Source of the DNA: an uncultured Candidatus Saccharibacteria bacterium
GTDB taxonomy: Bacteria > Patescibacteriota > Minisyncoccia > UBA6257 > UBA11618
Assembly: GCA_964362125.1 (NCBI GenBank)
Contig: CAYICS010000004.1
Span: 1 to 62,611 of the forward strand
DNA length: 62,611 bases
Reading direction: 5' to 3'
Position numbers and translations under genes: made by a program. Positions 7,754-44,481 of the stretch are shown here, piece by piece; positions within the stretch are counted from its first letter, which is position 1; every line of letters begins with the position of its first letter. Below the pieces are notes generated by a model, which was given only the letters and a program-made list of their open reading frames with translations, made no database searches and had not been told where the DNA came from.

Positions 7754-9397
<1,644 letters not shown>

Positions 9398-9404
9398 TTA
9401 AGAT

Positions 9405-9698
9405 TTATGATTCAAGAATGGCGAGAATATCGTCTTCGTCGGCGACCAGATATTTTTTGCCGTCAATTTCAATCTCATCCGGTCCGTATTTTTTAAATAG
9501 AACAAGATCTCCGACCTTGACTGCCAGCGGCAGTAAGTTGCCTTGGTCATTGCGCTTGCCCGGGCCCACAGCCACTACCCGGCCCTGAATTGGTTTCTCT
9601 TTTTCCGCTGTATCCGGCAAGACAATCCCGGACTTAGTTATTTTGTCTTCGGCAATCGGTTCCAGAAAGACCCGATTGGCCAATGGCTTCAAATTCAT
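9405..9698 (-). CDS. groS: Co-chaperonin GroES
   Basis: LKPLANRV, SGIVLPDTAEKEKP motifs; 97 aa, upstream of groL. Confidence 0.99.
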   Translation of the reverse strand: MNLKPLANRVFLEPIAEDKITKSGIVLPDTAEKEKPIQGRVVAVGPGKRNDQGNLLPLAVKVGDLVLFKKYGPDEIEIDGKKYLVADEDDILAILES

Positions 9699-9708
9699 TG
9701 TGGAGAGT

Positions 9709-9738
9709 ATTATAACCCCCGCCCCCCGCCATTGTCAA
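9709..9738 (-). promoter_or_regulatory. sigma70-type promoter of groESL
   Basis: TTGACA-N18-TATAAT on the minus strand, ending 11 nt before the groS ATG; no CIRCE seen. Confidence 0.75.
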
Positions 9739-9766
9739 ATGTTTGGGGGTGAGACCCCCAAACATT
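9738..9766. repeat. 29-bp hairpin AATGTTTGGGGGT-GAG-ACCCCCAAACATT
   Basis: Perfect 13-bp stem; second, inverted copy at 30872-30898. Confidence 0.8.
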
Positions 9767-9788
9767 ACCTCTTTAGCATAGTCAACTG

Positions 9789-10322
9789 TCAGAGGTTAAT
9801 TGTTTTTAATTTAAAGCAGAGATGGACCTCTTGGTGGTTGACGATAATCCGTTCCGGCCCGCCGTTGCGGAACCGGGCAATCTGTTTATCAATTCGTCTC
9901 ATCTGCCACCAGCATAAAATTTTTTCAATTATGCGTCCAACTTCACGATCGTGAAGTTGGACGTCTTTTCTATAGATTAATCTGATATTATCCCAGAGTT
10001 TTTTGGAATACTGGTCGTCGCCAAAAGGCCGCAGTTGACCGGCAATAAAATGATTGAAGCAGAAGCCGTCGCGCGTCCGTCGGCCGGCAATATTAGTCCG
10101 CCAGCCGAGGAAGGTAAAGATCAGCAGCGTAAAAAAGCGGCAGGTCCAGAGCCGGCCCGGTTCGGTAACGACAATCACATCAAAATCCGAATGCTCGCCG
10201 GCATTGCCCAAGGCCATCGAGCCGGCAATATAAACCTCGTTTAATCCCGGAGTAAAGCGAAAAGGCCATTTGCGCTGTAAAAGACGGCGCATTTTGTGAT
10301 CATAAATGATTGTAGAATCCAT
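9789..10322 (-). CDS. Pol-beta-superfamily nucleotidyltransferase-domain protein
   Basis: GSMALG...SDFDV motif (GS-x-DxD); start taken at the internal ATG to avoid overlap with htpX. Confidence 0.75.
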   Translation of the reverse strand: MDSTIIYDHKMRRLLQRKWPFRFTPGLNEVYIAGSMALGNAGEHSDFDVIVVTEPGRLWTCRFFTLLIFTFLGWRTNIAGRRTRDGFCFNHFIAGQLRPFGDDQYSKKLWDNIRLIYRKDVQLHDREVGRIIEKILCWWQMRRIDKQIARFRNGGPERIIVNHQEVHLCFKLKTINL

Positions 10323-18726: not shown

Positions 18727-19011
18727 TTGATGAAAAAAGCCGCTAAGAAAAAGGATTTTCCGGCCAGAGATCGTTATTTCGGTGTTTTACTGGAAAAGAT
18801 GGAATCAAATTTCCGTCAAGTTTTGGAAGGACACGCCGCCCTAGATAAGAAAATAGATGATTTTCGTGAGGAGTTTATTGATTTTACAAATGAAGCTAAT
18901 TGGAAATTTAAAGAGATTTTAGATGAATTAAAAGAGTTTAAGGAGGGAAGATTTGCCGAATTAGAGAAGAGAATTAATCGGTTGGAAAAATGGGCATCCT
19001 CCCGCAATTAG
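18727..19011 (+). CDS. Small coiled-coil hypothetical protein
   Basis: Heptad pattern, RYFGVLLEK.ES.F..VLEGH; extended -10 upstream. Confidence 0.65.
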   Translation: MMKKAAKKKDFPARDRYFGVLLEKMESNFRQVLEGHAALDKKIDDFREEFIDFTNEANWKFKEILDELKEFKEGRFAELEKRINRLEKWASSRN

Positions 19012-19856
19012 TCGTTAATAGCATCATCGCCGGTTCTATCTACACTCTGGTGGCGCTGGGTTTCAATCTGATCTACGGCGCCACCAAGTTTTTCAATCTG
19101 GCTCATGGAGTTTTGGCGGCGGTTGGGGGATACACGGTTTTTTTCTTTTTCAAAGAGTGGGGCTGGAATGTTTATTTGGCGATCCTTCTGGGCGTCGCTC
19201 TGGCCGGTTTCATCGGCTATCTCTTGGATAAATTCATTTACTTTCCTCTGCGTCGGCGCGGCGCTTCCGGTATGGTCTTGCTGGTGGCGTCACTGGGCGC
19301 CTTCACCGCCATCCAAGCCATTATCGCCATTTTATTCACCAGTCAGTTTCAGACGCTGGCTCAAAATGTCGGCGGCCAGACAATTTATGAGGTTACCTCG
19401 GCTGTCATCACCCAAACTCAGGTAATCATCTTTGTTCTTGGTTTATTGATTATGGCCGGCTTGATGCTTTTGCTCAACTACACTTTATTTGGCAAAGCGG
19501 TAAAGGCCATTAGCGACGATGAAGAAGTGGCGCGGATTGTTGGTATCAATACCGACAAAATAATTGGTTGGGTATTTGGCATCGGCTCTGGGATTGCGGG
19601 ATTGGCCGGGATTATGGTGGGTTTTGATACAGGCATTGAACCAACTATGGGCATGGCCTTGTTGCTCAAAGGCGTGATTGGCGCCATCATCGGCGGCGTA
19701 GGCAACATTTACGGCGGCGTGCTTGGTTCTTTCTTGCTGGGTTTTGTGGAGAATTTTGGAATCTGGAAAATAAGTGGAGAATGGAAAGACGCGATAGCTT
19801 TTGGATTATTGATAATATTTTTACTATTTAGACCCAAGGGAATAATCCAAAAGTAA
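18990..19856 (+). CDS. livH: Branched-chain amino acid ABC permease LivH
   Basis: LVALGFNLIYG...FFNLAHG, GKAVKAIS, GGVGNIYG motifs. Confidence 0.92.
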   Translation: MGILPQLVVNSIIAGSIYTLVALGFNLIYGATKFFNLAHGVLAAVGGYTVFFFFKEWGWNVYLAILLGVALAGFIGYLLDKFIYFPLRRRGASGMVLLVASLGAFTAIQAIIAILFTSQFQTLAQNVGGQTIYEVTSAVITQTQVIIFVLGLLIMAGLMLLLNYTLFGKAVKAISDDEEVARIVGINTDKIIGWVFGIGSGIAGLAGIMVGFDTGIEPTMGMALLLKGVIGAIIGGVGNIYGGVLGSFLLGFVENFGIWKISGEWKDAIAFGLLIIFLLFRPKGIIQK

Positions 19857-19985: not shown

Positions 19986-20852
19986 ATGGCTTATCTGATT
20001 CATTTAGCGATCTTGATAGCGATTTACGGGATATTAGGGTTGAGTTTGAATTTAGTCGTCGGTTTCACTGGTCTGTTGTCAGTGACTCATGCAGCTTTCT
20101 ATGGTTTAGGCGCCTATGCCACGGCTATTCTGCTGACTAAATTCGGGATGAACTTTTTTCTGGCGTTGATTATTGGAATGGTTTTATCAGGCATCCTCGC
20201 CGCCCTGATTGGTCTGGTGTTGAGCCGTTTCCGGGGCGATTATTATGCTCTGGTTTCTTTTGGTTTTAATATTATCGTCTTCAGTATTTTTTTAAACTGG
20301 CAGGCATTGACTCGCGGACCCTTGGGCATTCCCGGCATTGCCAAGCCCAGTTTTTTTGGTTTTGATTTTAATACCAATGTTTTATTTTTAGTTTTAACAG
20401 TCGTATTTTTGTTGCTGGCATGGTTACTGTCATCGTTTATAACAAAATCCTCTTTTGGTCGCGTCCTCAAAGCTGTCCGTGAAGACGAAAAAGCTATTCA
20501 AGTTTTCGGCTACTACACGCCCGGATATAAACTGATGATTTTCGCCATCGCCGCCATGATGGCTTCAGTGGCTGGCTCGCTTTTTGCTTCTTACATTTCC
20601 TTCATTGATCCCTCCACCTTCACTCTCAACGAATCTATCTTTATTTTGGCCATCATCATTTTAGGCGGCTTAGCCAGCCACCGTGGTTCTTTTTGGGGGG
20701 CCGTGGCCTTAATTTTACTGCCAGAACTTTTGCGCTTTGTCGGTTTTCCTTCAGATATTGCCGCTCAGATGCGTCAGGTTGCCTATGGATTGATTTTGGT
20801 ATTATTAATGTTGTACCGGCCCCAGGGCTTATTTGGGGAATTTAGGTTCTAG
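19986..20852 (+). CDS. livM: Branched-chain amino acid ABC permease LivM
   Basis: SLNLVVGFTGLLSVTHAAF, SSFGRVLKAVREDE, LYRPQGL motifs. Confidence 0.92.
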   Translation: MAYLIHLAILIAIYGILGLSLNLVVGFTGLLSVTHAAFYGLGAYATAILLTKFGMNFFLALIIGMVLSGILAALIGLVLSRFRGDYYALVSFGFNIIVFSIFLNWQALTRGPLGIPGIAKPSFFGFDFNTNVLFLVLTVVFLLLAWLLSSFITKSSFGRVLKAVREDEKAIQVFGYYTPGYKLMIFAIAAMMASVAGSLFASYISFIDPSTFTLNESIFILAIIILGGLASHRGSFWGAVALILLPELLRFVGFPSDIAAQMRQVAYGLILVLLMLYRPQGLFGEFRF

Positions 20853-20902: not shown

Positions 20903-21634
20903 ATGACGATTCTTCAGACAAAAAATTTAATTAAGAAATTCGACGGCGTTCATGCGGTTGATAATCTTTCCATTGAGATAGAGAAGGGCAAAATTACCGG
21001 CATTGTCGGGCCTAATGGTTCGGGCAAGACGACTTTAATCAATACTTTAAGCGGCGTTCTGCCCATTGACGGCGGCTTGGTTATCATCAGCGGTTCTAGA
21101 TTTCAAGCAATCCAGCCATACCAGATACCAAATTTTGGCCTCACCCGGACTTTTCAGGATATTCATCTTTTTAATCAGATGAGTGTTTTAGATAATATTT
21201 TGGTGGCGCTCACCGAGCGGCCGGTCTTCTCAGCGCTTTTTGAAAAACACGGACAAAAGCATTTGCGTCAAGCCGAGGAGATTTTGAAAAAAGTGAATAT
21301 CTGGGAGAAGCGCGATGTTAATGCGGAAAATCTCTCTTATGGTCAGCGCAAACTTCTGGAAATTGGCCGGGCGTTGGCGATGAATGTAAAGATTTATTTA
21401 CTGGATGAACCCTTTGCCGGTCTTTTTAAAGAAATGCGCAAGGTAGTTAGTGGCATCATTTTAGACTTAAAACAGCAGGGGCGGACGATAATTTTAATTG
21501 AACACGACATGGATTTGATTCGCGATCTCTCTGATTATGTTTTTGTTATGGATTTCGGTCAGCTTCTGGCTGAAGGCAAGCCGGACGAAGTGCTTGCTAA
21601 ACCCGAAGTGATTGAAGCATACTTGGGTTCATGA
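20903..21634 (+). CDS. livG: LIV ABC ATPase LivG
   Basis: GPNGSGKT, LSYGQRKLLE, LLDEPFAG, LIEHDM. Confidence 0.92.
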   Translation: MTILQTKNLIKKFDGVHAVDNLSIEIEKGKITGIVGPNGSGKTTLINTLSGVLPIDGGLVIISGSRFQAIQPYQIPNFGLTRTFQDIHLFNQMSVLDNILVALTERPVFSALFEKHGQKHLRQAEEILKKVNIWEKRDVNAENLSYGQRKLLEIGRALAMNVKIYLLDEPFAGLFKEMRKVVSGIILDLKQQGRTIILIEHDMDLIRDLSDYVFVMDFGQLLAEGKPDEVLAKPEVIEAYLGS

Positions 21635-22773
21635 GATATGTCGGTTGGCTCATCGTCATTATCATAGTTATATTTGGTATTTACTATTTTTGGACCCGTC
21701 CTTCGCCTAAAGGCCCCGGGGGGCAGGTTCCTGAAGAGACAAAATCAGAGGCGCTCAAAGTCGGCGCTCTACTGACTTTAACCGGCGGCGGGGGCTTTGC
21801 CGGCGAAGAAGTGAAAGAGGGGATGGATCTCGCTTCCAGAAATCCAGAAATCCAGCAAAAACTAGCAATCCAGTTTGAAGACAGCGCCACTGAACCGGCC
21901 AAAGCTGTTTCTGGTTTTAATAAACTAAATGAGATTGGCGACGCTGATATTATTGTGGTGACTTTGTCGGCTATGGCCGAGGCGGTAACGCCCATCGCTA
22001 TTGAAAAGAAAATTCCCATTTTACAAACTTTGGTTTCGGCGCCCAACATCGCCGCCGGCAGTCCTTACACTTTTAGATATTTCCATTCGGCTGATGTTGA
22101 TACAGCTATTGGTTCGCGAATTGCTTTAGAAAAAATAAAAGCCAAGACCGCGGCTATTTTGTATCTTAATGATCCCTATGGCCGCAGTCATTACGAATTT
22201 TTTAAGAAATTCTTCACCGACGGCGGTGGAAAAGTTGTTTCGGAACAATCATTCACGCGTGAAGACAACGACTTCCGCACTCACCTGACCAAAGTTAAAG
22301 AAGTCAAGCCAGATCTGCTTTATTTTGTCGGTTTAGAAAAAAGCGTGGCGCAGATTTTGAAACAAGTCCGTGAACTGAAAATTAAATCGGCGCTCTTGGC
22401 CAACGCGGTGATGGCCGGGCCGTCGGTGCAGGAGGCATCCGGGGAAAATGATGAGGGCGTGTATCTAGTTTCGCCATCTTTCTATTTTGATCAGCCCACT
22501 GATGTCGCTAAAAAATTTATTGAAGATTACAAAGCCGCCTACAACAAACCGCCTTCGCACTACGCAGCCATTGGCTATGACATTGTTAATTTGCTGGCGC
22601 GGATTGACAAACGGCAAGGGGATAGAGGCGATGACATTGTCCGCAAGCTCACCGAGATTGGCGGCATGACTGGAGCAATGGGGGATTTGACCATTGACGC
22701 TGAAGGTGAAATTTCTTATCCCCTCTATCCCGCCCAGATTAAGGAGCAGAAACTAATTAGGTTGGAATTATAA
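21631..22773 (+). CDS. LivJ/K-family substrate-binding protein, paralog 2
   Basis: LKVGALLTLTG, FEDSATEP, N-terminal TM anchor. Confidence 0.9.
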   Translation: MRYVGWLIVIIIVIFGIYYFWTRPSPKGPGGQVPEETKSEALKVGALLTLTGGGGFAGEEVKEGMDLASRNPEIQQKLAIQFEDSATEPAKAVSGFNKLNEIGDADIIVVTLSAMAEAVTPIAIEKKIPILQTLVSAPNIAAGSPYTFRYFHSADVDTAIGSRIALEKIKAKTAAILYLNDPYGRSHYEFFKKFFTDGGGKVVSEQSFTREDNDFRTHLTKVKEVKPDLLYFVGLEKSVAQILKQVRELKIKSALLANAVMAGPSVQEASGENDEGVYLVSPSFYFDQPTDVAKKFIEDYKAAYNKPPSHYAAIGYDIVNLLARIDKRQGDRGDDIVRKLTEIGGMTGAMGDLTIDAEGEISYPLYPAQIKEQKLIRLEL

Positions 22774-22803
22774 AGCTACGCTTTTGGCACCCACTGCCAT
22801 CAA

Positions 22804-23022
22804 GAGACAGCCAACCTTCCTCTCAGCAATACGCTTCGTTGCGCATAAATTCCACTTCACTCTTGGTCAGAAATTATCAGAAAAACAGAACTCGCCCTCT
22901 CCCTCGACCCGGCTCGGGATTCAGAGCTCAAACAACTGTTTTTCTTAGATTTCTTTCCCAAGAGTTCAGGAATTTATAGCTTCACTTCGCTAAATATTGC
23001 TTCGAAGAAGATTGGCTGGCTC
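22804..23022. repeat. ~220-bp palindromic element, copy C
   Basis: GAGACAGCCAA/TTGGCTGGCTC IR; 49-bp core identical to copy A. Confidence 0.85.
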
Positions 23023-23146
23023 TAACTTATGGGGGCAAAATCGCTTCTTGCGAAGAAGCGATTTTGATGGGAGCGGTTGATGAAACCGCCCCCGGGATTT
23101 TATATATTGACTTTGAAATTGTAAAGATCTATGGTATACTTTCTAT

Positions 23147-23350
23147 ATGACCACTAAAACTTATGAGAAAATTAAACAAGAAATAAAAAGAGAACTTGTT
23201 GAGGAGTTTATTCTTCCTATTCTAGAGGAAACAAGTGATTCTAAAGGAGAGTATAGAAGTGAATTCGTTAAAAAAGTCCTTAAAACTGCATCGGAAAAAC
23301 GAGTTCATAAATACAATCCGAAGACCTTTCTAAAAATTATTCATAAATAA
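23147..23350 (+). CDS. Putative antitoxin
   Basis: 67 aa, coupled to a RelE-like gene; TGGTATACT promoter upstream. Confidence 0.65.
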   Translation: MTTKTYEKIKQEIKRELVEEFILPILEETSDSKGEYRSEFVKKVLKTASEKRVHKYNPKTFLKIIHK

Positions 23351-23613
23351 TGCACTCCCTTGTTTTTGGAGGGCGATTTCTTAACTCCGCTAAAAAGCTC
23401 GAAGAGAAATTGAAATTACGACTTAAAAAAAACTTAGATAGTTTATCTGATAATCCCTTTCACCTATACCTTCACACAAAACCTCTTACTGGTGAGTTAA
23501 GGGGGCTATATTCTTTTAGATTGGGTAGGGATTTTAGAGTTATCTTTAAATTTCTGGATAACAAAGAGATTCATCTTATTGATATTACTCATAGAAAAGA
23601 TATTTATCGCTAA
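23350..23613 (+). CDS. RelE/ParE-superfamily toxin
   Basis: LHTKPLTGELRGLYSFRLG.DFRVIF...ITHRKDIY. Confidence 0.85.
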   Translation: MHSLVFGGRFLNSAKKLEEKLKLRLKKNLDSLSDNPFHLYLHTKPLTGELRGLYSFRLGRDFRVIFKFLDNKEIHLIDITHRKDIYR

Positions 23614-23618
23614 AAATT

Positions 23619-23723
23619 ATGGAAAAGTTATTGGAACTTCAAGACATCCATGTTCACTACGGCGGCGTTCGGGCCTTAGACGGCGCCAGTGTTTATCTGG
23701 ACGAGGGCGAGGTGGTTTGTTAA
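23619..23723 (+). pseudogene. Truncated, synonymously diverged copy of the livF 5' end
   Basis: First 33 aa identical to LivF (25062), then C and stop. Confidence 0.85.
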
Positions 23724-23826
23724 CAATTGGGGTCAGCAGGACTCCCGGGGTTTTTTGTTTTGACAACGGCAATCCGCTTTGTTACTATTAAATTAGATCT
23801 TTACAACCCTTTTAGGAGGATTTGCC

Positions 23827-24486
23827 GTGAAATGCGAGTGTGAGTGTAAGTGTGAGTCTGGTGGTGGAGATTTCGTTGAGGCTCTGATTACAGTTCTCTT
23901 TGTTCTCCCCATCATCAGTTCGTTCGAAGTCATCGGCGCGTTGTTTTCCAGAGAAGGGAGGAGAAATTTAAAGGGGCTCGAAGTCTTTTTGGGTCTGTTG
24001 GGATTCATAGAGATAGCATTTTTCTCTATGATTTACTTTAGTCTTTCGACAGCTAAAGACACCGCATCTGAAGAGACCTCGTTTGTTCCCTCAAATAATC
24101 TTCAGGCCGTTACTCATCAGACAGGTGCTGTAAAGATTCCCCCATTAACTCCACCCCAGTGTCTTCATCTCAGAGCTCGCTTTGAAGAACGTCAAGTCGA
24201 GTGGGAAGGGGAAATCTTCCGTCTAGGTATCATCAAGCACTGTGATGACTGCCGGAAGATCCATTTCTCCGATGATCAATGGCGGGACTTTGGGCCTTGG
24301 TTTATCGAAGCTAAAGCTCATGGAAGCTTGCCAACAATAAATGCTCCGGCAACAGCCGTCGAGCAAACAACTAAGCCGAAAGTACCGGCGGGTGAATACA
24401 AATTACCCCACGATCCAGAATCTCATGCCAAATTCCAAAAATGGATTGATGGTCTGAAAAAGAAAGAGAGGGAAAGACGGCGCTAA
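23827..24486 (+). CDS. Hypothetical membrane protein
   Basis: 219-aa ORF, 2 TM segments, TTGACA-N17-TACTAT promoter upstream. Confidence 0.55.
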   Translation: MKCECECKCESGGGDFVEALITVLFVLPIISSFEVIGALFSREGRRNLKGLEVFLGLLGFIEIAFFSMIYFSLSTAKDTASEETSFVPSNNLQAVTHQTGAVKIPPLTPPQCLHLRARFEERQVEWEGEIFRLGIIKHCDDCRKIHFSDDQWRDFGPWFIEAKAHGSLPTINAPATAVEQTTKPKVPAGEYKLPHDPESHAKFQKWIDGLKKKERERRR

Positions 24487-24597
24487 CCGATTAAACTTCC
24501 CAGAAGCTGTCTCGGGCGCGGGTACAAACAACTCCAATCCTAGATTGGAGTTTTTCCTTTTTTGACACAAATCATCAATTTGATTAAAATTAAGAAT

Positions 24598-24792
24598 ATG
24601 ACCACCTCTACTATTTATAAAAAGTTAAAACCAGAACTGCGTCAGTTTATTGTTGAGACTATTCATCAAGTTCTTGATGATCCAGATTTTGGAATGGAAT
24701 TAAGCGAAAGAGCCAAGAAAAGACTGGAGCAAGCCCGGAAATCAAGAAAAAGAGGCATCCCTGCTTCAGAGATTAGAAGAAAATATTACTAG
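24598..24792 (+). CDS. Putative antitoxin
   Basis: DPDFGMELS...RL...GIPASEI; TTGACA-N17-TAAAAT promoter with an internal palindrome. Confidence 0.7.
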   Translation: MTTSTIYKKLKPELRQFIVETIHQVLDDPDFGMELSERAKKRLEQARKSRKRGIPASEIRRKYY

Positions 24793-24796
24793 TTTT

Positions 24797-25060
24797 ATGG
24801 CCTTCTGGAGATGGGATTTTGATCCTGACGGAGAAGAGGAATTTAAAGATATAGATCGTTCTGTGAGGCAGAGAATTATTAATAAGCTTGATTGGCTTGT
24901 TAAAAATTTCACATCAATTAAGCCATCATCTCTAACAGGCGAGTATAGCGATTTTTTCAAATTAAGAGTGGGTAAGTGGCGGATTTTCTATAAAGTTTAT
25001 TGGAAGGATAGTTTAATCAGGGTTTATTACATTGATAATCGCGATAAAGCTTATAAATAA
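24797..25060 (+). CDS. RelE/ParE-superfamily toxin
   Basis: LTGEYSDFFKLRVGKWRIFY...IDNRDKAY. Confidence 0.85.
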   Translation: MAFWRWDFDPDGEEEFKDIDRSVRQRIINKLDWLVKNFTSIKPSSLTGEYSDFFKLRVGKWRIFYKVYWKDSLIRVYYIDNRDKAYK

Positions 25061-25061
25061 A

Positions 25062-25775
25062 ATGGAGAAACTTTTAGAGCTTCAAGATATTCACGTTCAC
25101 TACGGCGGTGTTCGGGCTTTAGACGGCGCCAGTGTTTATTTAGATGAAGGTGAGGTGGTGGCCTTGATGGGGCCTAATGGCGCCGGCAAGTCCACCATCC
25201 TCAAGACAATCTTTGGCTTGGCGCCGATTCATTCGGGAAAGGTATTGTGGCATGGCAAGCCGATCAAGCCAGTGTCCCATGAGGTGGTGGCCCGCGGCAT
25301 TGCTTTTGTCCCTCAAGGCCGGCGCGTTTTCACCAGCTTGACTGTTGAAGAAAATTTGGAGATCGGCGGCTATACTGTGCCAGACAAAAAAGAAGTGCGG
25401 CGGCGCATTGAGGAAGTGATGGAGATTTTCTTAGCGCTCAAAGCCAAGCGCCACGCTAAATCTGGCACGCTCTCGGGCGGCCAGCAACAGCAATTGGCCA
25501 TTGCCCGCGGCCTGATGACTGATCCCAAAGTTCTCCTGTTAGACGAACCAACCCTTGGTCTTGCCCCGAAGATCATCAAAGAAGTTTTTGAGACCATTAA
25601 AGAAATTAACCAGCGGCATAAAACATCTATTATGGTAGTGGAGCATAACATTAAATCATTGCTTAATTTTGTTAATCGCGCCTATGTCCTCAACCGCGGC
25701 CAAGTGGCCACTGAAGGATCACCTAAAGAGATTTTGGAAAGCGACATTTTAGAAAAAGTCTTTTTAGGGCAATAG
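25062..25775 (+). CDS. livF: LIV ABC ATPase LivF
   Basis: GPNGAGKS, VPQGRRVF, LSGGQQQQLAIARGLM, LLDEPTLGLAP. Confidence 0.93.
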   Translation: MEKLLELQDIHVHYGGVRALDGASVYLDEGEVVALMGPNGAGKSTILKTIFGLAPIHSGKVLWHGKPIKPVSHEVVARGIAFVPQGRRVFTSLTVEENLEIGGYTVPDKKEVRRRIEEVMEIFLALKAKRHAKSGTLSGGQQQQLAIARGLMTDPKVLLLDEPTLGLAPKIIKEVFETIKEINQRHKTSIMVVEHNIKSLLNFVNRAYVLNRGQVATEGSPKEILESDILEKVFLGQ

Positions 25776-25837
25776 GAAAACAAAAGAGAACAGAGTGAGT
25801 CTGCGCCACTCATCTGTTTTGTGTTACAATAAATCTA

Positions 25838-26473
25838 ATGCAACCCGAGCTTCTTATTTTTCAATTAGCAGTTTTGATTTTTTCCATAATGATCCATGAA
25901 GTTTCTCATGGGGCGGTGGCTTTTTATTTGGGAGACGACACTGCTAAAAAAGCCGGCCGCTTGACTCTCAATCCGCTGAAACATCTCGATCCTTTTGGTT
26001 CGATTATTCTGCCAGCGCTGTTGGCTATTCCGCTTTTGTTTGGCGGTCGCTCCATCATTGTCGGTTGGGCTAAACCTGTGCCTTATGATCCTCGTCAGCT
26101 TAAAGATCCGAAAACCGGCGCCGGTCTGATTGCCTTAGCCGGCCCGGCCAGCAATCTGATTATTGCCTTGGTCTTCGCTATTTTTCTACGCTTAGCAACA
26201 GCCGTGGATAATATGGCTTTAGCCAGCGCCTTTCAGATAATTATTCTCCTTAATTTGGTACTGGCAATCTTCAATTTATTTCCCGTGCCGCCGCTGGACG
26301 GCTCAAAAATTTTATTTTGGCTGATGCCCCGGCGCTGGGCGCCCATCGAGGCCTTTTTGGAACGTAATGCCCTAATTTTTTTATTGGCGGTAATCTTTCT
26401 AGGCCTGCCTTTATTACAGTTTATTGTTAGTTTCCTTTATGTATTTTTATTGACAATCGTCGGTCTCTCCTGA
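25838..26473 (+). CDS. Site-2 protease family (M50) membrane peptidase
   Basis: [29 protein letters not shown]. Confidence 0.93.
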
Positions 26474-26490
26474 TATTATTTTTTATTGCA

Positions 26491-26904
26491 ATGCCAACAG
26501 TTAGACAGTTATTGAGAAAAGGCAGAAAGGCCAAAGCGCGTAAGTCCAAGGCGCCAGCGCTTTCGCGTTATTTTAATACCATAAAAAATCGGCCGGTGGA
26601 GTCGCCATCGCCTTTTAAGCGCGGCGTTTGTCTGAAAGTTTTCACTACTACTCCTAAAAAACCTAACTCAGCCTTAAGAAAAGTTTGCCGGGTGCGATTG
26701 ACCAATGGTGAAGAAGTGACCGCTTATATTCCCGGCGAGGGTCACAATCTGCAGGAACACTCGGTGGTGGTGTTGCGGGGCGGCCGGGTCAAAGATTTGC
26801 CGGGAGTCCGCTATCATGTGGTGCGGGGCGTTTTAGATACCACTGGTGTGGAAGTCAGGAAACAACAGAGGTCGAAGTATGGAGCCAAGCGCCCTAAGGC
26901 TTAA
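26491..26904 (+). CDS. rpsL: 30S ribosomal protein S12
   Basis: [23 protein letters not shown]. Confidence 0.99.
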
Positions 26905-26935: not shown

Positions 26936-27403
26936 ATGAGAAAAAAAAGAAACTACAAACGGGAACGGAAGCCGGATTTAAAGTACAGCGACGTCCGGGT
27001 CGGGAGATTTATTAATTATGTAATGGAGCAGGGTAAAAAGAGTATTGCTCAGAAGGTTGTTTATGATGCTTTTGAGCAGATTGAGAAAAAGACAAAAAAA
27101 GAACCGATGGCGATTTTTGAAAAAGCCCTAGAGAATGCCTCGCCTCAGGTCGAAGTGGTCAGCCGTCGGGTCGGCGGCGCCAATTATCAGGTACCGCGGC
27201 CAGTACGGCCGGATCGACAGTTTATTTTGGCAGCCAAATGGATTGTTGCTGCTGCCCGGCTCCGTAAAGGCAAGCCCATGGCCGAGCGGCTAGCTGAAGA
27301 ATTTTTAGCCGCTTCCAATAACGAGGGGTCTGCTATTAAAAAGAAACAAGATACTCATAGAATGGCCGAGGCGAATAGAGCTTTCGCGCATTTTGCGTGG
27401 TAG
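26936..27403 (+). CDS. rpsG: 30S ribosomal protein S7
   Basis: RRVGGANYQVP, HRMAEANRAFAH. Confidence 0.99.
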   Translation: MRKKRNYKRERKPDLKYSDVRVGRFINYVMEQGKKSIAQKVVYDAFEQIEKKTKKEPMAIFEKALENASPQVEVVSRRVGGANYQVPRPVRPDRQFILAAKWIVAAARLRKGKPMAERLAEEFLAASNNEGSAIKKKQDTHRMAEANRAFAHFAW

Positions 27404-27407
27404 CAGA

Positions 27408-27508
27408 GTATCGATGCTAATATACGAATGAATGCGAATGATACGAATAGGAATACGGATTCGCAACCCCATTCGTAGATTCGCAAATTCGTAGATTCGC
27501 ATCGAAGC
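27408..27508. repeat. ~100-bp GTATCGATGC...GCATCGA palindromic element, copy 1
   Basis: ACGAAT/ATTCGT arrays; homologous copies at 42517, 47228, 49982, 51054, 58899. Confidence 0.9.
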
Positions 27509-27517
27509 CCAAAACCT

Positions 27518-29623
27518 ATGCCCCGTCAATATCCTATTGAAAAAGTTCGCGACATCGGCATCATTGCCCACATTGATGCTGGTAAAACCACAGTTACCGA
27601 GCGGGTGCTTTTTTACACCGGCGTTTCCCATAAAATTGGCGAAGTCCATGAAGGGACAACGGTGATGGATTGGATGGAGCAGGAAAGGGAGCGCGGCATC
27701 ACCATTACTGCTGCTGCCACAACGGCTTTCTGGATGCCGACTTACGCCAATGGTGATAAAGCTTTTGAGCATCAGATTAATATCATTGATACCCCGGGCC
27801 ACATTGATTTTACGGTTGAAGTAAAACGATCTTTACGCGTGCTGGATGGGGCGGTGGTTGTTTTTGATGGCGTCGCCGGTGTTGAACCCCAATCAGAAAC
27901 CAACTGGCATTATGCTGATGATTACAAAGTGCCGCGCATTTGTTTTATCAATAAACTCGACCGCACCGGCGCCAATTGGGAGAATAGTTTAAAGGCGATT
28001 CAAGAACGGCTTAATCCTCAGGCCGCGCCTATTCAAATTCCTATTGGTCTCGAATCCAATTTCGAGGGCGTGATTGATCTTTTGCGAATGAAAGCTTATT
28101 ACTTCGAGGGTGAAAAAGGCGAGCGGGTTGTGGAAAAAGAAATTCCGAAAAATCTTCTGGAGGAAGCCGAAAAGCGGCGGCGGCAGCTGGTGGAAAAAAT
28201 TGCCGAACAGGATGACGAGCTGCTTCATAAATTTTTAGAACATCAGGAGATTTCGCTGGAGGATTTAAAACGTGTCTTGCGCAAAGCCTGCATTGAAGTG
28301 AAATTAATTCCGGTGTTGACCGGCGCCGCCTTAAAAAACAAGGGAGTGCAGCTGGTTTTGGACGCGGTGGTTGATTATTTGCCGTCGCCGGTTGATTTGC
28401 CGTCCATCAAAGGTATTAATCTGAAAACCGACGCTGAAGAGATCCGTTTGGCGGCTGATGACCAGCCATTGGCGGCTTTGGCTTTTAAAATCGCCGCCGA
28501 CCCCTTTGTCGGTTCGTTGACTTTCTTCCGGGTTTATTCCGGCACTCTCAAGCGCAGCACCTATATTTTGAATTCTACCAAAAACTCACAAGAACGAGTG
28601 GGGCGGATTGTTCGTCTTCACGCCAATCACCGCGAGGAGGTGAATGAGATTTACGCCGGTGAAATCGGCGGCTTGGTGGGAATGAAAGATACCAGCACCG
28701 GCGACACTTTATCTGATCCCGATCATCCCATCTTGCTGGAGAAAATAATTTTCCCCGAGCCGGTGATCTCTATGCGTATTTCTCCCAACACCAAAGCCGA
28801 TCAGGAAAAAATGGGCATTGCCCTGCGCCGTTTGTCAGAGGAAGACCCGACTTTCCGGGTGAGCGGCGATCAGGAGACAGGCGAGACGATTATTTCCGGA
28901 ATGGGGGAGTTGCATTTGGAAATTATCGTGGACCGGATGAAGCGGGAGTTTACCGTTGAAGCTAAGACCGGCCGGCCGCAGGTGGCTTATAAAGAAACAG
29001 TGACGGCTCTGGCTGAAGCTGAAGGTAAATATATTCGCCAGACCGGCGGTCGGGGGCAATATGGTCATGTCTGGCTGAAAGTAGAGCCGCGGGAGCGGGG
29101 AGCGGGTTTTGAATTTGTTGATGCTATTAAAGGCGGCGCCATTCCTAAAGAATTTATTCCGGCAGTGGAGAAAGGCGTGAAGGAGGCGATTGATAAAGGT
29201 GTAGTGGCTCATTATCCGATGGTGGATTTGCAGGCAACTCTTTACGATGGTTCTTACCACGAAGTTGACTCTTCGGAGATTGCTTTTAAAATCGCCGGCT
29301 CGATGGCTTTTCAGGAAGCGGCTAAGCGGGCCCGGCCAGTGATGCTGGAACCAATTATGAAAATTCAGGTGATTATGCCCACGGAATTTTTGGGAGATGT
29401 AACCGGGGATTTGTCAGCCAAGCGCGCCAAAATTGAAGCGATGAACGATCGTTTTAACATCAAAATGATAGATGCTAAAGTGCCGCTGTCCGAGATGTTT
29501 GGCTATGCCACCTCATTGCGTTCCATGACTCAGGGCCGGGGCTCATTCACGATGGAGTTTTCTCACTACGAGGAAGTTCCGAACAATATCGCGCAGTTAA
29601 TAATTGAGGGGAAAAGGAAGTAA
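27518..29623 (+). CDS. fusA: Elongation factor G
   Basis: [26 protein letters not shown]; 701 aa. Confidence 0.99.
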
Positions 29624-29685
29624 TGATTATTCCTAAATAAAAATATAAATTTTGTTATTTATTACATCTCTTAATTTGTTAATTT

Positions 29686-29793
29686 GTTACATCCCTTATT
29701 CGTACGAATAAGGGATGTAACGTCTGGGTGAAAGTAAGGCGCCAGGAAGAAATCAGGAAGACGTCAGGAAAAATTCAGGAAAATTTCAGGGGT
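29686..29793. promoter_or_regulatory. Perfect 36-bp palindrome plus five CAGG motifs at 11-bp spacing upstream of the ArsR gene
   Basis: Palindrome 29686-29721; CAGG at 29743, 29754, 29765, 29776, 29787. Confidence 0.55.
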
Positions 29794-29812
29794 TTGTGTT
29801 ATTATTTAATTT

Positions 29813-30073
29813 ATGAGGGAGATTGAGAGAAGTTTGAAGGCCTTGGCCAATCGGCGGCGGTTGTCGATTGTTAAGTATTTGAAACAGAATAGAGAAGCGC
29901 CGGTGGCGGATGTTGCCGCAGCGATCAATCTTTCTTTCAAGGCGACCTCAAAGCATCTGGCTTTGCTTTCGGCGGCGGATATTGTTGATAAGGAACAGCG
30001 GAGTGTCCAGGTTTTCTATCGCTTGTCAGATAATTTAAGGTCGCCGGTTAAACATATAATTTCACTACTCTAA
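29813..30073 (+). CDS. ArsR/SmtB-family transcriptional regulator
   Basis: KALANRRRLSIV...wHTH SKHL..L...V.YRL. Confidence 0.9.
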   Translation: MREIERSLKALANRRRLSIVKYLKQNREAPVADVAAAINLSFKATSKHLALLSAADIVDKEQRSVQVFYRLSDNLRSPVKHIISLL

Positions 30074-30096
30074 TTCGAGCGAATTAGGGATATAAT
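30070..30096 (+). promoter_or_regulatory. Candidate ArsR operator (CTAATTCG-AG-CGAATTAG) adjacent to the msrB -10
   Basis: 8-2-8 inverted repeat at 30070-30087, TATAAT at 30091-30096. Confidence 0.55.
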
Positions 30097-30107
30097 AAAC
30101 TGAGAGA

Positions 30108-30551
30108 ATGAAACCAGTTAATAACGAATATTGGCGTAAGAAATTAACCCCGGAGCAGTATCGAGTTCTGCGGGGAAAGGGGACGGAGCCGGCTTTTTCT
30201 GGAAAATATTATAAGACCAAAGACAAAGGTGTTTATAGATGCGTCGCCTGCGGGGCTGGATTGTTTTCTTCAGATGCCAAGTTTGATTCCGGCACCGGCT
30301 GGCCCAGTTTTACTGAATCGATGAACAGAGAAAATGTAGAATTGCGCCAAGACCAAAGTCAGGGAATGATTAGAACAGAGGTTTCGTGCAAAAACTGTGG
30401 CTCGCATTTGGGTCACGTCTTTGACGATGACCCCACTCCAACCGGTAAAAGATTTTGTATAAACTCCTGCGCGCTGGATTTTGGTAGAAATTCTTTTATA
30501 AAAGGATTGAATGATTGTAGCCAGTTGATTATTGAAGGAAAGAGAAAATGA
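30108..30551 (+). CDS. msrB: Peptide methionine sulfoxide reductase MsrB, with an EF-G-derived C-terminal tail
   Basis: [36 protein letters not shown]. Confidence 0.95.
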
Positions 30552-38803: not shown

Positions 38804-39031
38804 ATGATCCAAACTACCTCTACAACAATTAGACTTCCAAAAAAAGCAGCTAAAGGAGGCTGGGTTATTTTGAGTATTGATGAATACCGGCAAATTATGG
38901 AAAAAAATGTGCCGACTTATTATTTAACTGGGAAGAAAGCGAAGGAATTAGATCAGCTGGTAAAAGAAGGATTAAGAGCTTATAGACAGGGTAAGATTAA
39001 GAAGCTTGGGTCTCTAGCCGACCTTAGATGA
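38804..39031 (+). CDS. Putative antitoxin
   Basis: 75 aa, ATGA-coupled to a RelE-like gene. Confidence 0.65.
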   Translation: MIQTTSTTIRLPKKAAKGGWVILSIDEYRQIMEKNVPTYYLTGKKAKELDQLVKEGLRAYRQGKIKKLGSLADLR

Positions 39032-39288
39032 TTGAGATTTTTAGTACGCCCCGATTTGATAAGAATTACAAAAAATTACCAAAAGAAGTAAAGTTAAAGG
39101 CTGAGAAAAAAGAAGGATTTTTTAAGATTAATCCTTTCGATCTTCGACTTAACACCCACAGACTTCATGGAAAAGACAAAACAAACTGGGCTTATTGGGT
39201 AGACTATAAGTATCGAATAAAATTTATTTTTCTAAATGGGAGTAAGGTGCTTTATCTTGACGTCGGCACCCACGATGAGGTTTATTAA
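39028..39288 (+). CDS. RelE/YafQ-like toxin
   Basis: LNTHRLHG...WAYWVDYKYRI.F...DVGTHDEVY. Confidence 0.85.
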   Translation: MIEIFSTPRFDKNYKKLPKEVKLKAEKKEGFFKINPFDLRLNTHRLHGKDKTNWAYWVDYKYRIKFIFLNGSKVLYLDVGTHDEVY

Positions 39289-39332
39289 ATAATACTTGAC
39301 ACCCTAGGGGGGGATGTATATTCATAAGTATT

Positions 39333-40460: not shown

Positions 40461-40537
40461 ATAAAATTACGGCAAATCTTGCCAGAGTAGTTGAAAGGCG
40501 GCTTTAAAAGAAATCTTGATCGTGGTAAAATTGAATA

Positions 40538-41035
40538 ATGAGAAAGAATGAAAATAATTACGCCTTTATTGATAGTCAAAATTTAAATTTATCAATCCGT
40601 TCTCAGGGTTGGATTCTTGACTTTGCAAGGTTTCGCAGATACCTGAAAGATAAATATAAAGTCAATAAAGCTTTTTTATTTATCGGCTATGTTGGCACTA
40701 ACCAAAATTTATATACTTCTCTCCAAAAAGAAGGTTATATTTTAATCTTTAAACCAACTCTTATACTTCCTAATAAAAAAGTGAAAGGCAATGTTGATGC
40801 CGAATTGGTTTTGCATACGATGATCGAATATCCTAATTGTGACAAGGCCCTAATTATTACTGGCGATGGCGATTTTTATTGTTTGATTGATTATTTAATA
40901 GAGAGGAACAAGCTTTTGAAGTTAATGGTTCCTAATAGGTTTAAATTCTCCTCTTTATTAAGAAAATTTATGTCTGATATGGTTTTTATGAATAGTTTAA
41001 AAATAAAACTGGAATATAAAAACAAAAGAGATTAA
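40538..41035 (+). CDS. NYN (LabA/DUF88, PIN-fold) domain protein
   Basis: AFIDSQNL, KGNVDAELV, ITGDGDF. Confidence 0.9.
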   Translation: MRKNENNYAFIDSQNLNLSIRSQGWILDFARFRRYLKDKYKVNKAFLFIGYVGTNQNLYTSLQKEGYILIFKPTLILPNKKVKGNVDAELVLHTMIEYPNCDKALIITGDGDFYCLIDYLIERNKLLKLMVPNRFKFSSLLRKFMSDMVFMNSLKIKLEYKNKRD

Positions 41036-41090
41036 ATGAGGGGCATTGACCTTCGGACGAACCTTAGGTGTAGCCCCTCATCGTGATATT
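41036..41090 (+). ncRNA. Candidate structured RNA directly after the NYN stop codon
   Basis: 9-bp outer stem ATGAGGGGC/GCCCCTCAT, inner ACCT/AGGT, GGACGAACC loop, TCGTGAT tail. Confidence 0.35.
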
Positions 41091-41209
41091 CTAATACTAG
41101 CAGCCAACCCCCTCGCCTGTCAATAGTGATTTGTCCACAACAAAAACGGCAAGTTTGAGTTGGTAAAATAGAATTATGGTTATCGCAAGACCATAATTAT
41201 GGTAAAGTT

Positions 41210-41697: not shown

Positions 41698-41825
41698 GTA
41701 TCTATTATAATGAAGACGACGGTCACTTATCAAGTGTTGCCGGTATTCTGCGCGATTTCAATAAAATTATGGTTATCGCAAAACCATAAATTCGAGTTAA
41801 GGATGGACTGTGATATAATGGCAGG

Positions 41826-42601: not shown

Positions 42602-42608
42602 TTAACTT

Positions 42609-42890
42609 ATGATTAATAAGTTTATTGTTAAAAATCCTCTAATCACTGAAAAAGCCACGGCTGAAGGGCCGCTGGGCAAGTATACTTTTTTGGTGGAGAA
42701 AAAAGCCAACAAGCCCGAGGTGAAAAAAGCGGTGGAGGCGATTTATAAGGTGAAGGTGACTCAAGTCAATATCGTTAATGCCAGACCCAAGAGCCGCCGT
42801 CTTGGCCGCACTACCGGCGTCAAACCCGGCTACAAAAAAGCCATCGTCACTCTGGCGGCTGGACAGAAGTTAGATATTTTGCCGCAATAG
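42609..42890 (+). CDS. rplW: 50S ribosomal protein L23
   Basis: PLITEKA, YTFLV...ANKPEVKKAVE, KKAIVTL. Confidence 0.98.
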   Translation: MINKFIVKNPLITEKATAEGPLGKYTFLVEKKANKPEVKKAVEAIYKVKVTQVNIVNARPKSRRLGRTTGVKPGYKKAIVTLAAGQKLDILPQ

Positions 42891-44411: not shown

Positions 44412-44481
44412 CAAATCCGGCTACAAAAAAGCCATTGTCACTCTGGCGGCTGGACAGAAGTTAGACATCTTGCCCCAATAA
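44412..44481 (+). pseudogene. Diverged duplicate of the last 70 bp of rplW
   Basis: 64/70 identical to 42821-42890. Confidence 0.9.

What the first reader, a model, noticed from the sequence alone, without database searches (positions are those of the whole stretch)
23147..25161. Tandem [toxin-antitoxin + livF start] units with a fully silent-diverged livF fragment
Seen: 23619-23717 encodes the same 33 residues as livF (25062 onward), but 15 codons differ and all are synonymous. Each livF start directly follows a different RelE-type TA pair. Zero replacements with 15 silent changes means the fragment evolved as a functional gene elsewhere, so this is not local duplication and decay. This third recoded gene-end scar suggests serial allele replacement that drags in new TA cargo.
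Basis: partly seen in the sequence, partly recalled or inferred. Interest (0 to 1): 0.62.

Follow-up and report, generated by a model that had tools for sequence, protein, structure and literature searches.

The report
Displaced livF start beside stacked toxin-antitoxin cargo
In an ultra-small groundwater bacterium, a 33-codon copy of the start of the transporter gene livF sits 1.4 kb upstream of the real gene with only silent differences; it is a footprint of cargo DNA (a toxin-antitoxin pair and an orphan gene) spliced in from a diverged relative without any integrase, a kind of scar that is known elsewhere but unusually common in this genome.

Summary
Window 23619-23717 and 25062-25160 encode the same 33 residues and differ at 17 bases in 15 codons, all silent. 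None of 200,000 neutral simulations gave fewer than 4 replacements. Each copy abuts a different RelE-type toxin-antitoxin (TA) pair. The toxins are 26% identical, and each has closer homologues in other genomes. Independent assemblies from six samples give the same structure.

The 82/99 identity with no replacement matches what two species of one genus show for the same livF region (82/99, one replacement). The two copies are therefore alleles from two diverged lineages, not a local duplication that decayed.

The cargo holds no recombinase. The genome has ComEC and RecA, no MutS, and only one Xer-like recombinase. The best reading is recombinase-free insertion: homologous on the livF side and illegitimate on the other, or a single crossover with a circle.

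The same scar type recurs at fusA, rplW, fmt, RNase J and an SDR gene, with 47 silent and 2 replacement codon changes in total. It also brackets TA modules in three other genomes of the order, once as a two-step array. A closed comparator genome has one.

The closest known cases are insertion with long target duplication (ILTD), homology-facilitated illegitimate recombination (HFIR) displacement arrays and icd/e14. I rate it a new variant of a known kind.

The parts
20903..21634 (+). livG-like ABC ATPase. In the closest relatives this gene abuts livF directly.
   Evidence: Pfam ABC_tran + BCA_ABC_TP_C. In L106, G002, G013 and G032, livG is followed by livF after 1-43 nt.
21631..22773 (+). LivJ-like substrate-binding protein. 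It lies between livG and livF only in this lineage.
   Evidence: Pfam Peripla_BP_6, E = 2.4e-43; synteny comparison.
22779..23031 (.). MITE-like ~250-nt long-hairpin repeat, one of at least 15 copies in the genome. It fills the spacer after livJ.
   Evidence: blastn against the genome. Fold -120.9 kcal/mol, z = -7.5. The only population variation in this region lies in its loop, 22897-22926.
23113..23140 (+). Promoter-like site for TA unit 1.
   Evidence: TTGAAA-16-TATACT with TG extension.
23147..23350 (+). Antitoxin 1 (67 aa).
   Evidence: It overlaps the T1 start by 1 nt. Homologous 66-70-aa partners (motif EGEYR..F.K.ILK) sit upstream of T1-family toxins in about 10 other genomes. Weak DUF2683 match.
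23350..23613 (+). Toxin 1, RelE/StbE family (87 aa).
   Evidence: TIGR02385 31.9 bits (cut-off 27.9). PF05016 30.8 bits (cut-off 23). Homologues in 79 of 301 genomes of the order, best 57%.
23619..23723 (+). livF' : displaced livF start. Codons 1-33 (23619-23717) are followed by TGT TAA. Homology ends at 23717/23718.
   Evidence: 33/33 aa, 17 silent nt differences. GC3 is 0.61, like the livF body.
23729..23755 (+). Terminator-like hairpin + T-run closing TA unit 1 / livF'.
23760..23788 (+). Promoter-like site for the 219-aa ORF.
   Evidence: TTGACA-17-TACTAT with TG.
23827..24486 (+). Orphan 219-aa cargo protein: Cys-rich N-terminus and two predicted long helices (membrane-like).
   Evidence: No Pfam, NCBIfam or PADLOC hit. 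0 of 300 genomes of the order. Only 2 weak hits among 1.84 billion representatives. AlphaFold mean pLDDT 48.5.
24530..24562 (+). Terminator-like hairpin after the 219-aa ORF.
   Evidence: 10-bp stem + T-run.
24562..24590 (+). Promoter-like site for TA unit 2. Inferred also to drive the intact livF.
   Evidence: TTGACA-17-TAAAAT, 11/12. No terminator lies between T2 and livF.
24598..24792 (+). Antitoxin 2 (64 aa, DPDFG.ELS..AKKRL type).
   Evidence: 38% identical to antitoxin 1 over 53 aa. The same partner is conserved upstream of T2-family toxins in about 10 genomes. Weak RelB-like hit.
24797..25060 (+). Toxin 2, RelE/ParE superfamily (87 aa).
   Evidence: PF05016 27.8 bits (cut-off 23). TIGR02385 23.3 bits, below its cut-off. 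26% identical to T1. Homologues in 43 of 301 genomes, best 54%.
25062..25775 (+). Intact livF-like ABC ATPase. Codons 1-33 (25062-25160) are the second copy of the repeat.
   Evidence: PF00005, E = 3e-35. The closest known protein is 79% identical. GC3 is 0.42 in codons 1-33 and 0.73 in codons 34-77.
29594..29623 (+). fusA tail (QLIIEGKRK*), the source of another scar.
30522..30551 (+). Recoded copy of the fusA tail, forming the end of the MsrB ORF. 7 of 9 codons and the stop are changed silently.
42818..42890 (+). rplW 3' end (intact gene 42609-42890).
44412..44480 (+). Displaced rplW tail after a 398-aa cargo ORF (42906-44102). 21 codons are identical in peptide, with 4 silent changes and stop TAG/TAA.

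Best explanation
The livF fragment is a displacement scar. Two lineages of about congeneric, species-level divergence each carried a different RelE-type TA module directly upstream of livF. DNA from one lineage entered the other and was joined homologously on the livF side and illegitimately on the other side. This could be homology-facilitated illegitimate recombination (HFIR) after DNA uptake, or equally a single crossover of a circular piece carrying cargo plus about 100 nt of livF. The result is two [TA + livF start] units in tandem: P1-antitoxin1-toxin1-livF'(33 codons)-terminator, then promoter-orphan ORF-terminator, then P2-antitoxin2-toxin2-intact livF.

All 15 codon differences predate the event. 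They accumulated while both copies were starts of working livF genes, which is why none changes the protein. Codon usage weakly suggests that the fragment is the native start and that the block 23718-25160 (orphan ORF + TA2 + a foreign livF start) was inserted after codon 33.

No integrase is involved. Retention is helped by two things: the repeats are too diverged to recombine out easily, and the cargo is addictive.

Shown: the two-allele nature of the repeat, the independent origin of the two TA pairs, the absence of a recombinase, and the recurrence of such scars. Inferred: the route (transformation), the type of joint, the direction of the import, and that livF is now transcribed from the TA2 promoter.
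For: 1. All 15 changed codons are silent and neutral decay is excluded.
2. Calibration: G002 vs G013 (same genus) show 82/99 nt identity and 1 replacement in the same codons, with whole-gene pS 0.66 and pN 0.064. The closest outside relative, L106, is equidistant (75/99) from both copies.
3. T1 and T2 are 26% identical, and each has closer homologues in other genomes. The units were therefore not duplicated in place.
4. Relatives have livG-livF adjacent and no TA, so everything between is inserted.
5. The cargo has no recombinase. The genome has one Xer-like tyrosine recombinase and no serine recombinase above cut-off. ComEC and RecA are present and MutS is absent.
6. Recurrence with the same signature: fusA 7 silent/0 replacement, rplW 4/0, fmt 5/0, RNase J 10/1, SDR 6/1, livF 15/0, giving 47 silent and 2 replacement changes.
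7. TA modules in other genomes are bracketed in the same way. G131 has two serial peroxiredoxin (Prx)-start fragments representing three alleles, with ends about 6 nt apart. G278/G242 have an fmt tail and G224 a membrane-protein tail. Variable end points argue against a site-specific att.
8. GC3 and codon-usage log-likelihoods: the fragment resembles core genes and the resident start resembles the cargo.
9. A single crossover with a circle carrying truncated homology is known to duplicate 109-950 bp (PMC3240628). HFIR has been proposed for displacement arrays (PMC5361080).
Against: - No donor lineage, empty site or single-unit variant was found. The nearest livF in 5.8 billion proteins is 79% identical. 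Degenerate-pattern scans of JGI metagenomes, GTDB genomes and viral contigs gave 0 hits.
- No microhomology can be assessed at the illegitimate joint without the donor.
- 33/33 identity is on the high side. Among livF homologue pairs 90-95% identical overall, only 3 of 75 share an identical N-terminal 33 residues.
- The scar scan selects for amino-acid identity, which inflates the silent:replacement ratio.
- The GC3 argument rests on 33 codons, and GC3 also drops in the 3' third of livF.
- No read-level data were available.
Confidence: 0.66

Rival explanations
1. Classical insertion with long target duplication (ILTD): the 99 nt were duplicated in place when the cargo arrived, and the intact livF was later overwritten by homologous recombination with a diverged allele. 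The fragment would then be a fossil of the old allele.
For: ILTD is documented for addiction modules (restriction-modification (RM) systems) without mobility genes, mostly in competent species. Some related scars are nearly identical: G278 fmt has 2/72 nt differences and G224 has 4/90. A recombination tract would naturally end at the cargo edge.
Against: It needs two events at each of six loci. It also needs T1 and T2 to have arrived separately anyway. The GC3 step lies at codon 33/34, not further into livF, which fits a block insertion better than a later tract.
Confidence: 0.12
2. An integrative element that uses the livF start as its att site and carries a replacement gene start, as e14 and phage 21 do with the icd 3' end. 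The integrase would have been lost or would act in trans.
For: The geometry matches: an intact gene is regenerated at one junction, a displaced and silently diverged fragment sits at the other, and the cargo has its own promoters. The e14/icd comparison is from my own knowledge of the literature; I did not read a source for it here.
Against: There is no integrase in the 1.4-kb block or in the cargo of any of the other scars. The genome has only one Xer-like recombinase. Fragment lengths range from 27 to 99 nt, and the serial scars in G131 end at different bases. There are no viral relatives.
Confidence: 0.1
3. The 34-codon ORF is itself functional, for example as a coupled leader peptide of TA unit 1, and is kept by selection after an old duplication.
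For: It is an intact ORF starting 5 nt after the toxin stop and is followed by a terminator. It shows no replacements despite near-saturated silent divergence.
Against: It lacks the Walker A motif and any fold-competent unit. Scars at five other genes with unrelated peptides show the same pattern. T1-family modules elsewhere are followed by different genes. The TA pairs are not duplicates of each other.
Confidence: 0.05
4. A metagenome assembly chimera between two co-occurring strains.
For: The genome is a 24-contig MAG from a community that probably holds relatives. Repeats such as the MITE do break its contigs.
Against: Six ENA assemblies and three Logan assemblies give identical sequence across all three junctions. 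No repeat longer than 21 nt is shared by the two copies, and there is none at the 23717/23718 joint.
Confidence: 0.02

Closest known systems
Insertion with long target duplication (ILTD) of restriction-modification genes (Nobusato et al. 2000, as cited in Furuta et al. 2010, PMC2853133)
   Same: An addiction-type module plus a few genes is inserted without any mobility gene. It is flanked by direct repeats of more than 30 bp that overlap a host gene end. Cases occur mostly in naturally competent bacteria.
   Different: ILTD repeats are near-identical (44/46, 417/423) and are read as a duplication of the recipient's own target. Here the repeats are 82% identical with only silent differences, so they are two orthologous alleles. 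The cargo is TA rather than RM, and the host is a Patescibacterium.
HFIR and displacement arrays (T6SS effector-immunity arrays in Vibrio cholerae, PMC5361080; Rhs/CDI C-terminal displacement, cited there)
   Same: An incoming module is anchored by a conserved coding stretch. The other end is joined illegitimately, the old module is pushed aside and kept, and serial events build arrays. The G131 peroxiredoxin array is such a series.
   Different: There the anchor is the conserved body of the toxin gene itself and the displaced parts are toxin tips or immunity genes. Here the anchor is the first or last 10-33 codons of ordinary housekeeping genes (livF, fmt, rplW, fusA, RNase J).
Campbell-type single crossover of a circle carrying a truncated homologous segment (E. 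coli lacZ, PMC3240628)
   Same: It produces a direct duplication of 109-950 bp of the shared segment around the inserted DNA, without a site-specific recombinase.
   Different: That case is experimental, with identical homology on a plasmid. Here the homology is 82% over 99 nt, and no circular form has been observed.
e14 / phage 21 integration into icd with a replacement 3' end (from my own knowledge; not read here)
   Same: An intact gene is regenerated by an element-borne gene end that is mostly silently diverged, and the displaced end is left as a fragment.
   Different: Those elements encode an integrase and use a fixed att core. Here there is no integrase and the end points vary.

Membership tests
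Type II toxin-antitoxin, RelE/StbE (TA unit 1) | Toxin matches the family model above its curated cut-off | tested here: met
   TIGR02385 31.9 bits vs 27.9; PF05016 30.8 vs 23.
Type II toxin-antitoxin, RelE/StbE (TA unit 1) | Small antitoxin gene directly upstream, a pairing conserved in other genomes | tested here: met
   1-nt overlap. Homologous antitoxin+toxin pairs occur in about 10 fetched loci.
Type II toxin-antitoxin, RelE/ParE (TA unit 2) | Toxin matches the family model above its cut-off | tested here: inconclusive
   PF05016 27.8 bits vs 23 is met. TIGR02385 23.3 bits vs 27.9 is not met. A conserved DPDFG-type partner lies upstream in about 10 genomes.
Type II toxin-antitoxin (both units) | Toxin arrests growth and the antitoxin neutralises it | not testable with these tools
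   Needs expression in a laboratory strain.
Insertion with long target duplication (ILTD) | Insert flanked by direct repeats of more than 30 bp of target sequence, with no mobility gene in the insert | tested here: met
   99-106-nt repeat. No recombinase in 23718-25061.
Insertion with long target duplication (ILTD) | Both repeats derive from the recipient's single target (near-identical to each other) | tested here: not met
   82% identity, pS 0.73, all changes silent, equal to congeneric-species divergence.
Insertion with long target duplication (ILTD) | A related genome shows the empty site with one copy | tested here: inconclusive
   Relatives at no more than 79% identity have livG-livF adjacent. 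No close relative exists in the databases.
Homology-facilitated illegitimate recombination (HFIR) | One joint in homologous DNA, the other at a non-homologous site (microhomology) | tested here: inconclusive
   There is a seamless in-frame joint at livF and an abrupt loss of homology at 23717/23718. The donor is unknown, so microhomology cannot be read.
Homology-facilitated illegitimate recombination (HFIR) | Host is able to take up and recombine DNA | tested here: met
   ComEC 132.6 bits, RecA 412.8 bits, MutS absent. These show gene presence only.
Integrase-mediated integrative element with gene-end replacement (e14/icd type) | Integrase encoded in the element | tested here: not met
Integrase-mediated integrative element with gene-end replacement (e14/icd type) | Fixed crossover core shared by independent insertions | tested here: not met
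   Fragment lengths are 27-99 nt. The two serial scars in G131 end about 6 nt apart.
LivF (branched-chain amino-acid ABC ATPase) | Equivalog model above its cut-off | tested here: not met
   NF008626 205 bits vs 441; UrtE TIGR03410 234 vs 286. It is called livF-like from context: livH, livM, livG and the binding protein lie upstream.

The most novel reading that the evidence does not exclude
In Patescibacteria, TA modules and other small cargo may travel as [cargo + 30-100 nt of a housekeeping gene end] units. These units would home to the same gene in related species by RecA-dependent, recombinase-free integration. They would be kept because the diverged repeats cannot recombine out and the TA is addictive. 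They would stack into integron-like serial arrays that put host genes such as livF under TA promoters. That would make them a homology-guided cassette system rather than occasional accidents.
Probability: 0.2. Interest if true: 0.72.

Novelty: new variant of a known kind. Interest (0 to 1): 0.5.

Why it matters
These scars are dated, directional footprints of gene flow between uncultivated ultra-small bacteria. Each one records that DNA from a lineage about as diverged as a sister species was built into the chromosome next to an essential or transport gene, without an integrase. At least six occur in 618 kb, most with addiction modules or orphan genes as cargo. This suggests that recombinase-free insertion is a main route by which streamlined CPR genomes gain accessory genes, and that TA modules help fix them.

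The scars also give a simple sequence signature for mining metagenomes for such events and for inferring unsampled donor lineages: a peptide-identical, silently diverged gene-end duplicate within a few kb.

Locally, livF is cut off from livHMG-J by two terminators and probably now depends on an autoregulated TA promoter.

Tried and rejected
- Rfam scan of 22000-26500 at E <= 1: nothing.
- Search for close livF relatives to place both starts in a tree: the nearest is 79% identical, so a meaningful phylogeny of 99 nt was not possible. Instead I used pairwise distances to five relatives and L106.
- Word-based search for T2 relatives found only itself. I replaced it with six-frame HMMER over 300 genomes.
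- Degenerate back-translated patterns for the shared peptide gave 0 hits in JGI metagenomes, GTDB genomes and viral contigs. T1 gave no confirmed hit in viral contigs.
- The 219-aa ORF has no family, no relatives, and a low-confidence fold (pLDDT 48.5), so no fold search was run.
- The cargo proteins of the different scars are unrelated to each other, so there is no common 'cassette gene'.
- Several tblastn 'duplicates' turned out to be copies of noncoding repeat families or paralogue N-termini, not scars.
- In-place tandem duplication is rejected.
- Assembly chimera is rejected.
HFIR primary papers PMC122324 and PMC122325 are not held.
Full report
**What is there.** The window is contig C4 of a 618-kb, 24-contig Patescibacteria (CPR) genome that is 96.9% complete.

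The region reads, all on the + strand:

| Feature | Coordinates |
|---|---|
| livH | 18990-19856 |
| livM | 19986-20852 |
| livG | 20903-21634 |
| LivJ-like binding protein | 21631-22773 |
| MITE-like hairpin repeat (~250 nt) | 22779-23031 |
| promoter-like site | 23113-23140 |
| antitoxin 1 | 23147-23350 |
| RelE/StbE toxin 1 | 23350-23613 |
| 34-codon ORF (first 33 codons of livF, then TGT TAA) | 23619-23723 |
| terminator-like hairpin | 23729-23755 |
| promoter-like site | 23760-23788 |
| orphan 219-aa ORF | 23827-24486 |
| terminator | 24530-24562 |
| promoter | 24562-24590 |
| antitoxin 2 | 24598-24792 |
| RelE/ParE toxin 2 | 24797-25060 |
| intact livF | 25062-25775 |
| M50 protease, rpsL, rpsG, fusA | downstream |

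**The observation.**
- 23619-23717 and 25062-25160 encode the same 33 residues.
- 17 bases in 15 codons differ, and every difference is silent.
- Homology begins a few bases before the ATG and stops abruptly after codon 33.
- In 200,000 simulations of 17 random substitutions, none gave fewer than 4 amino-acid changes; the mean was 11.2.
- The proportion of silent sites changed is 0.73, close to saturation.
- The two [antitoxin-toxin-livF start] units are collinear, with offsets of 1451, 1447 and 1443 nt. Each toxin stop lies 5 or 1 nt before the ATG.

**Is the structure real?**
- The same arrangement, base for base across all three junctions, was assembled independently from six ENA assemblies of the Hainich H51 groundwater well. 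These cover 0.1 and 0.2 um filter fractions, with replicates.
- It is also present in three Logan assemblies.
- The only variation lies in the loop of the MITE-like hairpin.
- The longest exact run shared by the two copies is 21 nt, and the 23717/23718 joint has no repeat. A de Bruijn graph therefore could not have created the arrangement.

**Not a local duplication.**
- Toxins 1 and 2 are 26% identical, and the antitoxins are 38% identical over 53 residues.
- Each toxin has much closer homologues in other genomes of the order: 57% for T1 (79 of 301 genomes hit) and 54% for T2 (43 of 301). These homologues have the matching antitoxin type upstream.
- The two TA pairs were therefore acquired separately.
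- In the closest relatives, livG is followed directly by livF: 1 nt in L106, and 20-43 nt in G013, G032 and G002.
- So the binding-protein gene, the MITE, TA1, livF', the orphan ORF and TA2 are all insertions into one former intergenic spot.

**How diverged are the two livF starts?**
- Two species of one genus (G002, G013) also show 82/99 identical bases over the same 33 codons, with a single replacement. Over the whole gene they show pS 0.66 and pN 0.064.
- The nearest outside relative (L106, 78% protein identity) is equidistant (75/99) from both copies.
- The fragment is thus what the start of livF looks like in a sister species of the resident lineage.
- That lineage is not in any database. 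The nearest livF among 5.8 billion proteins is 79% identical. Degenerate DNA patterns for the shared peptide find nothing in JGI metagenomes, GTDB genomes or viral contigs.
- A caveat: among 99 livF homologues, only 3 of 75 pairs at 90-95% overall identity have an identical N-terminal 33 residues. The source protein was therefore probably at least 90-95% identical, or the match is somewhat lucky.

**Recurrence.** I scanned the genome by comparing the terminal 45 residues of 656 ORFs with the same-strand frames within 7 kb. Direct inspection added the short fusA case. This gave six scars with the same signature:

| Gene end | Silent / replacement codon changes | Cargo |
|---|---|---|
| livF 5' | 15 / 0 | orphan ORF + TA2 |
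| fusA 3' | 7 / 0 | HTH + MsrB; the copy forms the end of the MsrB ORF |
| rplW 3' | 4 / 0, plus stop TAG/TAA | 398-aa ORF |
| fmt 5' (contig C7) | 5 / 0 | 414-aa ORF and two small ORFs |
| RNase J 3' (C1) | 10 / 1 | two ORFs, VapBC-like and RelBE-like pairs |
| SDR 3' (C2) | 6 / 1 | NeuB-like ORF |

In total there are 47 silent and 2 replacement changes in about 100 codons. The cargo proteins are unrelated to one another.

The same scan on a closed 634-kb genome of the same order (G152) found one scar.

Among 37 loci of T1/T2-family TA modules fetched from other genomes (396 kb), three modules are bracketed by a duplicated host-gene end:
- **G131:** intact peroxiredoxin, TA, fragment 1, NYN-domain cargo, fragment 2. 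This is a two-step series with three different alleles, whose homology ends about 6 nt apart.
- **G278:** an fmt tail after a TA pair. Its congener G242 has the same TA downstream of fmt and a 50-nt fmt-tail match (84-88% identical to G278's copies) in the same position.
- **G224:** a membrane-protein tail after a lipoprotein and a TA pair.

Compared with 1 of 588 genes in G152, 3 of 37 gives a rough Fisher p of 7e-4.

**Mechanism.**
- The cargo has no recombinase. The whole genome has one Xer-like tyrosine recombinase and no serine recombinase above cut-off.
- Fragment lengths vary from 27 to 99 nt, and serial scars end at different bases. This speaks against a site-specific att site.
- The genome encodes ComEC and RecA and lacks MutS. 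DNA uptake and recombination between about 80%-identical sequences are therefore plausible. Competence in Patescibacteria is discussed in PMC12455944.
- Two recombinase-free routes fit. One is homology-facilitated illegitimate recombination (HFIR), as proposed for displacement arrays of T6SS effector-immunity modules and Rhs tips (PMC5361080). The other is a single crossover of a circular piece carrying truncated homology, which is known to duplicate 109-950 bp (PMC3240628). I cannot separate them.
- Codon usage gives a weak hint about direction. The fragment has GC3 0.61, like the livF body just after codon 33 (0.73). The resident start has GC3 0.42, like the AT-rich TA2. Log-likelihoods under core-gene and cargo codon usage agree. 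This suggests that 23718-25160 (orphan ORF + TA2 + a foreign livF start) was inserted as a block after codon 33 of a native TA1-livF arrangement.
- Diverged repeats and addictive cargo should both hinder loss by recombination. That may explain why the scars that persist are the strongly recoded ones. This last point is inference.

**Comparison with what is known.** I read Furuta et al. 2010.
- ILTD shares the addiction-module cargo, the absence of mobility genes, repeats of more than 30 bp overlapping gene ends, and the bias to competent species.
- ILTD repeats are near-identical and are read as a duplication of the recipient's own target. Here they are two alleles.
- The e14/phage 21-icd case (from my own knowledge) shares the silently diverged replacement gene end but depends on an integrase.
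- I therefore file the finding as a new variant of a known kind: heteroallelic gene-end duplication around TA and orphan cargo, recombinase-free, and unusually frequent in this CPR genome.

**Consequence for the locus (inferred).** TA1-livF' and the orphan ORF each end in a terminator, and no terminator separates TA2 from livF. The intact livF is therefore probably transcribed from the TA2 promoter and is uncoupled from livHMG and the binding-protein gene.

**Verdict.** The mechanism has 0.66 confidence at the level of 'recombinase-free import from a diverged congener', with the exact joint type unresolved. Interest is moderate (0.5).

Noticed in passing
window 22779-23031 (also 4624-4865, 4925-5140; contigs C1, C2, C3, C5, C10, C12, C14, C17, C20): A MITE-like ~250-nt imperfect long hairpin is present in at least 15 copies. 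Its fold is -120.9 kcal/mol, z = -7.5. Several contigs end in it, and its loop (22897-22926) differs between assemblies as if inverted.
   Followed up: partly
window 42609-44480: rplW is followed by a 398-aa orphan ORF and then a displaced rplW tail (21 codons, 4 silent changes). Homology ends exactly at the stop codon.
   Followed up: partly
window 29594-30551: The last 9 codons of fusA are repeated, with 7 codons silently recoded, as the last 9 codons of the MsrB ORF. The cargo between is an HTH regulator plus MsrB.
   Followed up: partly
window 38804-42508: The ribosomal-protein operon is interrupted between rplD and rplW by about 3.8 kb of cargo. This comprises another RelE-like TA pair (38804-39288), a binding-protein gene (39333-40460), a NYN-domain ORF (40538-41035) and further small ORFs.
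   Followed up: no
genome contig C1:83083-86300: An island lies between RNase J and its displaced 13-codon tail. It holds VapBC-like and RelBE-like pairs. It also holds two Cys-rich secreted ORFs whose first 170 nt, including upstream sequence, are 96% identical direct repeats (83102-83271 / 84881-85050).
   Followed up: partly
genome contig C5:20050-21846: Perfect 305-nt direct repeats flank a 394-aa binding-protein gene on the opposite strand. This is either a very recent insertion or duplication, or an assembly artefact.
   Followed up: no
genome contig C10:2025-2783: The last 8 codons of secA plus a downstream hairpin are repeated (93%) after a Doc/Fic-like ORF (2335-2718).
   Followed up: no
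window ~27400-27517, 42520-42608, 47228-47327, 49982-50078, 51053-51165, 58898-59009: A short intergenic repeat family (it reads as 'IRI..IRIIRI' in one frame) recurs between ribosomal-protein and translation genes.
   Followed up: no
L069 (G131:C3) 8070-9901: There is a two-step array in another family of the order: peroxiredoxin, T1-family TA, Prx-start fragment, NYN-domain gene, second Prx-start fragment. Three distinct alleles are present.
   Followed up: yes
L070 / L071 (G278, G242; same genus): Both genomes have the same TA downstream of fmt and an fmt-tail match beyond it. In G278 the fragment is closer to its own fmt (70/72) than the fmt orthologue of G242 is (93%). This hints at gene conversion between the copies or at repeated insertion.
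   Followed up: partly
whole genome: No MutS domain was detected in a 96.9%-complete genome that has RecA and ComEC.
   Followed up: partly
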